Positions 9,805 through 35,061 of a DNA stretch of 64,000 nucleotides are shown here, piece by piece (position 1 is the stretch's first letter; each line of letters starts with the position of its first letter). This stretch comes from Octopus vulgaris (lineage: Eukaryota), in contig OX597819.1 of the NCBI GenBank assembly GCA_951406725.2, positions 70,122,001 to 70,186,000 of the forward strand, read 5' to 3'. The notes beneath the pieces are model-generated. The model saw only the letters and a list, made by a program, of their open reading frames with translations. It ran no database searches and was not told the origin of the DNA. A program made the position numbers and the translations under genes.

Positions 9805-10194
9805 TACATTATTTAAATTTGACGGATATTTGTTCTCATCTTGTTTCGTGTTAACACAACGTTTCAGCTGATATACCCTCCAGCCTTCATCAGGTGTCTT
9901 GGAGAAATTTCAAACCTGGGTTCTCATTCCCACGGGCATATGGCATAGTGGTTAAGAGTGCAGGCTACTAACCCCAAGATTCTGAGTCCGATTTCAGGCA
10001 GTGACCTGAATAATGATAATAATAACATTGAAAAATACCTTGGGAATGAGAACCCAGGTCCGAAATTTCCCCAAGACACCTGATGAAGGCTGGAGGGTAT
10101 ATCAACCGAAACGCTGTGTTAACAACAAACAATATGTGGACAAATATCCGTCAAATGTAAATAACGTACATAATTCCTCATCTCTTAGATATAG
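9805..10194 (+). mobile_element. tRNA-headed, hammerhead-tailed SINE with 5' inverted copy of its 3' part (copy A)
   Basis: 9805-9930 is an inverted copy of about 10043-10172; A box TGGCATAGTGG and B-box-like GAGTCCGATTTC at about 9940-9995; (AAT)n linker; second hammerhead 10075-10120 with GTT>GCT. Confidence 0.8.
9853..9898 (-). ncRNA. Minimal type I hammerhead in tail of tRNA-headed element
   Basis: Minus strand: GACAC CTGATGA A GGCTG gagggtatat CAGCT GAAAC GTT GTGTT; palindrome AACGTT as stem III. Confidence 0.8.
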
Positions 10195-26264: not shown

Positions 26265-26315
26265 CTGAAATAAATAAATAAATAAATCATAATTATTGGT
26301 GACAGAAGTGACATT

Positions 26316-26681
26316 ACAGTTCTATATTTAAGAGATGAGGAATTATTTACATTATTTACGTTTGACAGATACTTATCCTCATCTTGTTTGTTGTTAACAC
26401 AACATTTTCAGCTGATATACCCTCCAGCCTTCATCAGGTGTCTTGGAGAAATTTCGAACCTAGGTTCTCATTCCTAAGGTATTATTCGATGTTATTATTA
26501 TTATTATTATTATTCAGGTCACTACCCGGAATCAAACTCGGATTCTTGGTGTTAGTAGCCTGCACTCTTAACCACTACGCCATATGCTGTGGGTTAGGGT
26601 TAGGGTCCATGGGCATATGGCATAGTAGTTAAGAGTGTGGGCTACTAACCCCAAGATTCAGAGTTCGATTCCAGACAGTGA

Positions 26682-26722
<41 letters not shown>

Positions 26723-26832
26723 TCGAAAAATACCTTAGGTATGAGAAACCAGGTTCAAAATTTCCCCAAGACACCTGACAAAGGCTGGAAGGTATATCAG
26801 CCAAAACGTGTTAACAAACAATATGAGGACAA
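26316..26832. mobile_element. Head-to-head palindromic pair of the tRNA-hammerhead SINE (copy B)
   Basis: Left arm 26316-26593 (minus), right arm 26606-26832 (plus), both with tRNA head; hammerheads 26396-26442 (GAAAAT variant) and about 26770-26812 (core mutated); TTAGGGTTAGGG between the arms. Confidence 0.85.
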
Positions 26833-26859
26833 AGTGACATTAATGCCAAAATATTTAAC

Positions 26860-27186
26860 CCCACTTAGAAATGGGTGTTGTGTTAGATATCACTGCTATC
26901 TCCAGATATTGCTCCTTCAGATTTTCTACTTATTCAGGTCTCTGCAGAATAGTCTTAATGGTAAAAATTTCAATTCCTTGGATGACATAAAAAGATACCT
27001 TGATGAATTCTTTGCCATGAAACCACCTCAATTCTGGGAAGAGGGTATTTTCAAGTTAAAGGAAAGATGGAGACGCATTGTGCAACAAAATGGTTCATAT
27101 TTGGTTGATTAAAAATGTAATAGCAAGTATTTATTGACCTTTTTCTTTCCTTTAAAAATCGGCACGAACCTTCCGGACAACCCAAT
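26860..27186 (+). mobile_element. mariner 3' fragment with right TIR
   Basis: YLFRSLQNSLNGKNF...FWEEGIFKLKERWRRIVQQNGSYLVD*; TIR ...CCTTCCGGACAACCCAA-TA. Confidence 0.88.
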
Positions 27187-34553: not shown

Positions 34554-34752
34554 CAGTTCTATATTTAAGAGACGAGGAATTATGTACAATATTTACATTT
34601 GACAGATATTTGTCCTCATCTTGTTTGTTGTTAACACAATGTTTCGGCTGATATACCGTCCAGCTTTCATCAGGTGTCTTGGGGAAATTTCGAACCTGGG
34701 TTCTCATTCCTAAGGTATTTTTCGATGTTGTTATTATTATTATTATTATTAT

Positions 34753-34783
<31 letters not shown>

Positions 34784-35061
34784 AAGAAGAAGAAGAAGAA
34801 GAAGAAGAAGAAGAAGAAGAAGAAGAAGAAGAAGAAGAAGAAGAAGAAGAAGAAGAAGAAGAAGAAGAAGGAGGAGGAGGAGGAGGAGGAGGAGGAGTGG
34901 AAGAAGAAGAATTATAACATCAAAAAATACCTTAGGAGTGAGAACCCCAGGTTCAAAATTTCCCCAAGACACCTAATGAAGGCTGGAGGGTATATCAGCC
35001 GAAATGTTGTGTTAACAACAAACAATATGGGGACAAATATCCATCAAATGTAAATAATGTT
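34554..35061. mobile_element. Inverted pair of the same element's 3' tails around (AAG)n(GAG)n (copy C)
   Basis: Arms about 34554-34752 and 34911-35061; hammerheads 34633-34678 (-) and 34968-35013 (+, CTAATGA); sits in an older SINE with GAAACCACAT repeated on both sides. Confidence 0.85.

What the first reader, a model, noticed from the sequence alone, without database searches (positions are those of the whole stretch)
26581..26620. TTAGGG telomeric repeats exactly at the fold-back axis of the hammerhead SINE
Seen: the left arm, read as cDNA, ends ...CATATGCTGTGGG, followed by TTAGGGTTAGGG (26594-26605), then the sense arm restarts TCCATGGGCATATGG. The element's terminal GGG is in register with the repeat. 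Established: TTAGGG is the molluscan telomere repeat; PLE RTs are related to telomerase, and telomeric PLEs (Athena, Coprina) have 5' ends capped by telomeric repeats in this orientation. Inference: the cDNA 3' end was extended by telomerase before fold-back, a fossil of telomerase-retroelement cross-talk at an interstitial site. One instance only, 15 nt long.
Basis: partly seen in the sequence, partly recalled or inferred. Interest (0 to 1): 0.75.

Follow-up and report, generated by a model that had tools for sequence, protein, structure and literature searches.

The report
Telomere repeats inside Penelope fold-back junctions
Two perfect telomere repeats sit exactly where the two back-to-back halves of a Penelope-type jumping-gene insertion meet, and the same rare mark occurs at two more such junctions in this genome, likely because telomerase briefly extended the loose end of the new DNA copy before it was sealed into the middle of a chromosome.

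Summary
TTAGGGTTAGGG (26594-26605) lies in register at the apex of a head-to-head insertion framed by an 11-bp target duplication. The element is not a free-standing SINE: it is the 3' pseudo-LTR (tRNA-like head, (AAT)n, hammerhead core) of a GIY-YIG Penelope-like element. The repeat is not fixed in the family. Genome-wide patterns found two further apex cases (C9, C1) with different junctions, among roughly 1,200-1,700 fold-backs; about 0.02-0.05 are expected by chance (P of two or more, ascertained locus left out, 3e-4 to 1e-3). In all three the G-rich repeat lies on the strand that supplied the apex centre. No cap was found on other copies, and no link to chromosome ends. Best reading: rare (about 0.2%) telomerase extension of a free nascent 3' end during integration (0.5). 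Rivals: telomerase healing of a later break at the palindrome (0.27); the element's own RT re-priming on its internal CTAACCCCAA motif, a jump seen in two copies (0.12). This is a short interstitial telomeric insertion of a known kind in a setting I did not find described. The scan earlier noted twin-armed Penelope insertions in this genome, not telomeric fillers.

The parts
26306..26316 (+). Left copy of the 11-bp target-site duplication AAGTGACATTA
26317..26342 (-). PLE 'tail': optional 3' extension of about 27 nt, present on this arm only
   Evidence: two piles of loose contig ends at 26315 and 26342; tail described in PMC11167929 and PMC3846280 (passages)
26317..26593 (-). Left arm: pseudo-LTR copy in antisense; on the + strand it reads as cDNA ending in GTGGG
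26396..26442 (-). Minimal type I hammerhead-like core of the left arm (CTGATGA at 26431-26437 intact, stem III region mutated)
   Evidence: by eye, coordinates; Rfam gave no hammerhead match; cleavage untested
26515..26593 (-). tRNA-like head of the left arm (A-box-like 26572-26582, B-box-like 26529-26539)
   Evidence: boxes recognised by eye from recalled consensus; ARAGORN found 0 genes in 7 related loci
26591..26593 (+). [quoted passage not shown]
   Evidence: family ends here read ...CCCGTGGG
26594..26606 (+). Filler TTAGGGTTAGGG plus T: two perfect telomeric hexamers at the apex
26607..26832 (+). Right arm: pseudo-LTR copy in sense, keeping its own apex centre (CCATGG), lacking the tail and about 25 nt more
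26645..26654 (+). Internal CTAACCCCAA motif in the anticodon-like arm: 9 of 10 bases match the reverse complement of the TTAGGG repeat; possible internal template
   Evidence: commonest form of the motif in fetched copies; priming on it seen in L035 and L036
26686..26720 (+). (AAT)n microsatellite inside the element
26770..26812 (+). Decayed hammerhead-like core of the right arm (CTGACAA in place of CTGATGA)
26832..26842 (+). Right copy of the target-site duplication

Best explanation
The filler is a two-repeat telomeric insertion at the apex of one head-to-head Penelope-type insertion, likely added by telomerase to the free 3' end of a nascent DNA strand before the two arms were joined. Steps: (1, shown) one insertion with an 11-bp duplication and two inverted pseudo-LTR arms; (2, inferred from PMC11167929 and from the two fixed 3' ends) the Penelope enzyme cuts and extends both target strands, giving two cDNAs; (3, shown as a pattern) copies usually stop at the head palindrome TGCCC-AC-GGGCA and join there cleanly, or one strand folds back for a few bases and is then joined to the other arm; (4, inferred) the exposed end reads GTGGG or ATATGG, a natural telomerase primer, and in about 0.2% of events a poorly processive telomerase adds about two repeats; (5, inferred) end joining with 1-3 nt of G:C overlap seals the junction. 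It is an accident of repair, not part of the element's cycle.
For: Three apex cases with three different junctions and their own target duplications: window, L032 (C9:41678477) and L182 (C1:97639493). Expected 0.024-0.049 in 1,700 apices x 25 positions; P(two or more) 2.7e-4 to 1.1e-3 with the window locus left out, still below 0.01 for 5,000 apices. All are perfect hexamers in register by 2-3 nt, as reported for telomerase-made interstitial repeats (PMC2246262, PMC7215372; passages). In 3 of 3 the G-rich strand is the one carrying the GT apex centre, i.e. the strand whose 3' end was free. L182 matches the common 'short fold-back, then join' pattern (25 of 35 asymmetric junctions have the centre on the full arm's cDNA strand, P=0.017, counted by hand). 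The window keeps both apex centres, like repeat-free joins of two complete ends (L266, L267, L268, L270). A snail telomerase has low repeat-addition processivity (PMC8480181; passages), fitting inserts of two repeats.
Against: Strand polarity 3 of 3 is weak (P=0.125). No cap at this terminus on any copy without an inverted partner although head-bearing loci number about 15,000 (3,100-45,000; 3 in 550 kb). Two other telomeric inserts in the family are not at a cDNA end: L186 is G-rich on the sense strand and L171 lies inside the microsatellite, which shows that later breaks or drift also put such repeats into this element. The element's own motif does prime TTAG synthesis (L035, L036). No telomere array was seen at 14 of 14 contig ends examined, so TTAGGG as this animal's telomere repeat rests on general knowledge of molluscs. 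Timing cannot be read from one genome.
Confidence: 0.5

Rival explanations
1. A clean or blunt fold-back was inserted first; the palindrome later broke at or near its apex (cruciform or hairpin cleavage) and telomerase added two repeats during end-joining repair, as for ordinary short interstitial telomeric sequences.
For: L032 and L182 are simple insertions into an otherwise clean fold-back with 2-3 nt duplicated, the outcome of a staggered break. L186 and L171 show telomeric inserts in this family away from cDNA ends. Long palindromes are fragile (general knowledge). ITS inserted within repetitive elements are on record (PMC2246262, table note).
Against: The window junction keeps both apex centres with no loss from either arm; deletions accompany half of mammalian ITS insertions (PMC2246262) but none of the 3 apex cases. 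G-rich strand matches the centre-bearing strand in 3 of 3.
Confidence: 0.27
2. The Penelope reverse transcriptase itself made the repeats by re-priming twice on the element's internal CUAACCCCAA motif, a telomerase-like repeat addition on its own RNA.
For: The motif matches the reverse complement of TTAGGG repeats at 9 of 10 bases. The first step is seen: in L035 and L036 the GGG end continues as TTAGTAGCC or a one-base variant of it, copied from this motif. Four more junctions read GGG-TTAG-T (L033, L034, L037, L054). PLE RTs share an ancestor with TERT (PMC8557442, abstract and passages).
Against: The motif has four C and no evident boundary, yet the inserts have three G and stop after TTAG each round; no four-G variant appeared among the 30 of 48 matches that were viewed in context. 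The second round needs priming over a mismatch. L182 starts from ATATGG, and L186 has 3.5 perfect repeats on the sense strand.
Confidence: 0.12
3. The filler was copied by template switching or polymerase-theta-type templated insertion from one of the many TTAGGG-rich dispersed repeats, or from telomeric or telomerase RNA.
For: 2,066 TTAGGG array ends genome-wide against 4 for the reversed control; about 24 of 30 viewed lie inside other repeat families (by eye). Other junction fillers are clearly templated from nearby element sequence.
Against: Those arrays are degenerate, and no flanking sequence of such a donor accompanies any of the 3 apex fillers. 0 of 30 arrays viewed were next to this element.
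Confidence: 0.08
4. Chance or a fixed feature of the family.
For: The genome is rich in TTAGGG tracts; the window locus was picked because it looked telomeric.
Against: Not fixed: absent from 54 of 54 listed fold-back loci. Two further apex cases against 0.02-0.14 expected over the range of assumptions.
Confidence: 0.03

Closest known systems
Short interstitial telomeric sequences inserted at double-strand breaks (Nergadze et al. 2007, PMC2246262; Santagostino et al. 2020, PMC7215372; passages read)
   Same: Perfect TTAGGG hexamers at an internal site, 2-4 nt in register with the flanking 3' end, sealed by end joining; telomerase proposed as the source.
   Different: Here they cluster at the head-to-head apex of a retroelement insertion, are only two repeats long (the mammalian survey started from four repeats), and are in an invertebrate; the broken end is probably a retrotransposition intermediate.
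Telomeric endonuclease-less PLEs, Athena and Coprina (described in PMC3846280 and PMC8557442, passages read; the 2007 primary paper was not available)
   Same: Telomeric repeats added to the 5'-truncated end of a PLE copy, G-rich on the cDNA strand; hammerhead motif in the element.
   Different: This element has a GIY-YIG endonuclease, inserts internally with target duplications, has no fixed telomeric stretch, and is capped in about 0.2% of junctions, with the chromosome continuing beyond.
Endonuclease-positive Penelope/Poseidon elements with inverted pLTRs (Arkhipova et al. 2013, PMC3846280; Frangieh et al. 2024, PMC11167929; passages read)
   Same: Inverted pLTRs, palindrome at the inverted junction, optional ~30-bp tail on one arm, target duplication, hammerhead in the pLTR.
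   Different: The passages read mention no telomeric filler at the inverted junction and no tRNA-like head inside the pLTR.

Membership tests
EN+ Penelope/Poseidon PLE | C-terminal GIY-YIG endonuclease upstream of the 3' pLTR | tested here: met
   Long copies (L039, L049, L186/L214) run into broken frames with CVYSIPCSCGRLYKGET; Atlas top hits score 0.96 to clusters with GIY-YIG in 18-20% of members; Pfam scans of the broken fragments gave no significant hit
EN+ Penelope/Poseidon PLE | Inverted pLTRs with a palindrome at the junction and a target duplication | tested here: met
EN+ Penelope/Poseidon PLE | Optional 30-40-bp tail on one arm | tested here: met
   about 27 nt; two fixed 3' ends at 26315 and 26342; tail on either arm
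EN+ Penelope/Poseidon PLE | Hammerhead ribozyme in the pLTR | tested here: inconclusive
   Core motifs by eye; no Rfam hammerhead match; single-strand folds did not give the hammerhead fold
EN+ Penelope/Poseidon PLE | PLE-type RT domain in a full-length partner | not tested
   5 long copies extended by 7 kb were all 5'-truncated; clade not determined
Athena/Coprina telomeric PLE | No endonuclease domain | tested here: not met
   GIY-YIG-like frames present
Athena/Coprina telomeric PLE | Location at chromosome ends | tested here: not met
   Window at 70.1 Mb of 135.6 Mb; L032 at 41.7 of 119.3 Mb; L182 at 97.6 of 225.7 Mb; no element head in 14 contig ends
Athena/Coprina telomeric PLE | Fixed reverse-complement telomeric stretches in the element | tested here: not met
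   Only near-matches: CTAACCCCAA and TAAGCCCTAA
Short ITS (telomerase-type) | Perfect hexamers absent from the ancestral state | tested here: met
   Ancestral state taken from sister copies; an orthologous empty allele was not seen
Short ITS (telomerase-type) | [quoted passage not shown] | tested here: met
   5 of 5 inserts found in the family: 3 nt (window), 2-3 (L032), 2 (L182), 4 (L186), 3 (L171)
Short ITS (telomerase-type) | Made by telomerase (e.g. telomerase RNA fragments co-inserted, or dependence on TERT) | not testable with these tools
   Telomerase RNA of this animal not identified
tRNA-derived SINE | tRNA-related head with A and B boxes | tested here: inconclusive
   Boxes by eye; ARAGORN 0 genes in 7 loci; no Rfam tRNA match
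tRNA-derived SINE | Free-standing unit, not part of a coding element | tested here: not met
   The head is continuous with the endonuclease-coding 3' end in long copies

The most novel reading that the evidence does not exclude
The Penelope reverse transcriptase performs telomerase-like repeat addition on a template inside its own RNA: the GGG end of the cDNA re-primes on the CUAACCCCAA motif of the tRNA-like head and adds TTAGGG units, leaving genomic fossils of a retrotransposon RT behaving as a proto-telomerase.
Probability: 0.12. Interest if true: 0.85.

Novelty: new variant of a known kind. Interest (0 to 1): 0.5.

Why it matters
If co-insertional, it shows that telomerase can reach retrotransposition intermediates in the middle of chromosomes in a germ line, and it names a source of interstitial telomeric repeats. 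The fillers also mark which strand was free, which makes the unresolved origin of Penelope's head-to-head inversions testable from junction statistics. The family offers a clean natural test between telomerase and the related PLE RT. If post-insertional, it is an ordinary interstitial telomeric scar that marks Penelope palindromes as fragile sites. No function of this locus is implied.

Tried and rejected
Fixed-consensus explanation: rejected. Subtelomeric arrays: 14 contig ends of 7 contigs hold neither telomere arrays nor element heads, so the assembly cannot answer this. L111 (one TTAGGG at the apex) was dropped from the count because it is better explained by two jumps within the element's own sequence; L094, L116 and L101 were dropped as mutated clean junctions or mutated upstream sequence. 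L033, L034, L037 and L054 (GGG-TTAG-T) were not counted: one telomerase round and internal priming predict the same letters. L188, L189, L192 and L193 are variants of the element's own upstream TAAGCCCTAA motif. L166, L168, L170 and L185 are unrelated to the element. Using the tail to mark the first-made strand failed: the centre lies on the tail arm's cDNA strand in 10 of 22 informative loci. Shared substitutions between arms (7 observed, 3.8 expected, 99 private, 19 loci) did not separate snap-back from two cDNAs. Contigs of four public runs laid on the locus were swamped by other family copies and did not show the orthologous junction. Rfam, ARAGORN and Pfam gave no significant match. [quoted passage not shown] 2017) were not held, so a prior mention there cannot be excluded.

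Full report
OBSERVATION. The + strand reads ...CATATGCTGTGGG TTAGGGTTAGGG TCCATGGGCATATGG, with the two hexamers at 26594-26605. This is the only tandem TTAGGG in the window. It lies between two inverted arms that are 88.5% alike. An 11-bp duplication, AAGTGACATTA, at 26306-26316 and 26832-26842 frames both arms. The structure is therefore one insertion, and the repeat was not target DNA caught between two insertions. The window lies at 70.1 Mb of a 135.6-Mb contig of a 2.8-Gb genome; from size and repeat content I infer a cephalopod, which no call names.

THE ELEMENT. Each arm has a tRNA-like head with A- and B-box-like motifs, an (AAT)n run, a minimal hammerhead-like core, and on the left arm only a 3' extension of about 27 nt. 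Box and hammerhead calls are by eye from recalled consensus; Rfam and ARAGORN found nothing significant. Longer copies continue upstream into broken frames with the motif CVYSIPCSCGRLYKGET, whose nearest Atlas clusters (score 0.96) carry GIY-YIG in 18-20% of members; Pfam gave no significant hit on the fragments. Contigs of four public runs pile up loose ends at two fixed points, 26315 and 26342. Inverted pseudo-LTRs, a palindrome at the inverted junction, an optional tail and a target duplication are the described anatomy of endonuclease-positive Penelope elements (PMC3846280, PMC8557442, PMC11167929; passages). So the 'SINE' is the 3' pseudo-LTR of such an element. Head-bearing loci number about 15,000 (3 in 550 kb of randomly placed DNA; interval 3,100-45,000).

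THE APEX. The family has a built-in palindrome, TGCCC-AC-GGGCA, at the fold-back axis. Exact patterns gave 988 and 1,198 strand hits for fold-backs at this point; 27 of 40 clean loci on C1 were recaptured by the second pattern (counted by hand), giving about 1,700 loci. Of 54 loci listed, 51 are clean and 3 have filler; none has TTAGGG. About 37 non-clean element junctions appear in the first 100 of 181 rows (by eye); most fillers are pieces of the element itself. The repeat is thus not fixed in the family.

OTHER CASES. Six targeted patterns found five telomeric inserts in this family in all. Three are at the apex. The window: GTGGG + TTAGGGTTAGGG + T + CCATGG. L032 (C9:41678477): GTAGG + TTAGGGTTAGGG + CATATGG, a different restart, with its own duplication. 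L182 (C1:97639493): a clean fold-back that runs 8 nt past the apex, then TTAGGGTTAGG in register with ATATGG, with a 14-bp duplication. Two are elsewhere. L186 (C20) has 3.5 repeats on the sense strand in place of about 35 nt just upstream of the palindrome, in a long copy; its end resembles an inverted copy of the element's own TAAGCCCTAA motif. L171 (C30) has two repeats inside the microsatellite. All five are in register by 2-4 nt. No cap was found at this terminus on a copy without an inverted partner. The patterns need exact anchors, so decayed cases are missed, and the 3' part of the element and the coding region were not covered.

CHANCE. The genome has 2,066 ends of TTAGGG tracts against 4 for the reversed control. 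Of 30 viewed, none was next to this element, about 24 lay inside other repeat families and about 6 looked solitary (by eye). Taking 25 positions around each of 1,700 apices, 0.024 (chance plus solitary tracts) to 0.049 (chance plus all tracts) matches are expected. Leaving out the window locus, P(two or more) is 2.7e-4 to 1.1e-3, and 2e-3 to 9e-3 if there are 5,000 apices. The enrichment is real, but it rests on two further events.

WHICH STRAND WAS FREE. The apex centre (GT on a cDNA strand) shows which strand supplied it. It lies on the tail arm's cDNA strand in 10 of 22 informative loci (P=0.83), so both arms can act as cDNA, in line with the report that a Penelope enzyme cuts and extends both target strands and starts at two sites (PMC11167929). 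In junctions with one full and one shortened arm the centre lies on the full arm's cDNA strand in 25 of 35 (P=0.017, tallied by hand from the rows), and the short side often reads a few bases of fold-back and then jumps to a downstream part of the element. That fits a short self-primed fold-back followed by joining to a second cDNA. In 3 of 3 apex cases the G-rich repeat is on the centre-bearing strand (P=0.125). The window keeps both centres, like the repeat-free joins L266, L267, L268 and L270; two of these also have a T between GGG and CCAC.

MECHANISM. Best supported (0.5): telomerase extended the free 3' end of a nascent strand during integration, by about two repeats, before end joining. 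In-register ends are the signature used for telomerase-made interstitial repeats in mammals (PMC2246262, PMC7215372), and a reconstituted snail telomerase adds few repeats (PMC8480181). Against it: polarity is weak, simple copies show no caps, L186 and L171 are not cDNA-end caps, and 14 of 14 contig ends examined lack telomere arrays, so the telomere repeat of this animal was not confirmed here. Rival 1 (0.27): a later break at the palindrome healed by telomerase; L032 and L182 fit it equally well. Rival 2 (0.12): the element's RT re-primed on its own CTAACCCCAA motif, which matches the reverse complement of the repeat at 9 of 10 bases. The first step is on record: in L035 and L036 the GGG end continues with sequence copied from this motif. 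But the motif has four C and no evident stop, while the inserts have three G and stop after TTAG in each round. Rival 3 (0.08): copying from another TTAGGG-rich repeat or RNA. Chance: 0.03.

COMPARISON AND NOVELTY. It works like a short interstitial telomeric insertion, and it resembles the telomeric caps of Athena and Coprina (PMC3846280), but it fails membership of those clades on endonuclease, location and fixed repeats. Searches listed no paper on telomeric fillers at inverted junctions of endonuclease-positive PLEs; I saw listings and passages only, no supplements, and two primary papers were not held. Earlier notes of this scan describe twin-armed Penelope insertions in this genome and none on telomeric fillers. 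Verdict: a real, recurrent, rare feature; a new variant of a known kind; interest 0.5.

Noticed in passing
window 26645-26654; L035 about 1490-1510; L036 about 1495-1510: The cDNA's GGG end re-primes on the element's own CTAACCCC motif and copies on into TAGCC: an intramolecular template jump at a telomerase-template-like site.
   Followed up: partly
window 26607-26685 and family-wide: A tRNA-like head with Pol III-type boxes sits inside the 3' pseudo-LTR of a GIY-YIG Penelope element, just after the end of the coding frame; most short copies begin at this head.
   Followed up: partly
L065-L092 (e.g. L067, L070, L072, L073, L082): At least three abundant dispersed repeat families, some with long inverted arms, carry internal degenerate TTAGGG arrays and account for most of the 2,066 interstitial tracts.
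   Followed up: no
window 9805-10185: Second copy of the family: full right arm joined at the palindrome to a shortened inverted arm.
   Followed up: partly
window 34568-35060: Head-to-head pair of headless copies whose (AAT)n runs meet across a 158-bp (AAG)n tract.
   Followed up: no
window 26895-27112: Decayed 3' end of a mariner-like transposase (frame ending ...RWRRIVQQNGSYLVD; family assignment recalled, not searched).
   Followed up: no
L095-L099, L121-L122 (C2:45977196, C25:25167340): A 19-bp tandem repeat family built on CCATATGG with a TTAGG/TTAGGG core, unrelated to the element.
   Followed up: no
L266 and L267 (C6:7437278, C1:1222123): Joins of two complete ends with a single T between GGG and CCAC, the same restart as in the window; possibly a one-base addition.
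   Followed up: partly
L269 (C9:94951334): A perfect palindromic apex whose two arms share the same substitution, suggesting that one arm was copied from the other.
   Followed up: no
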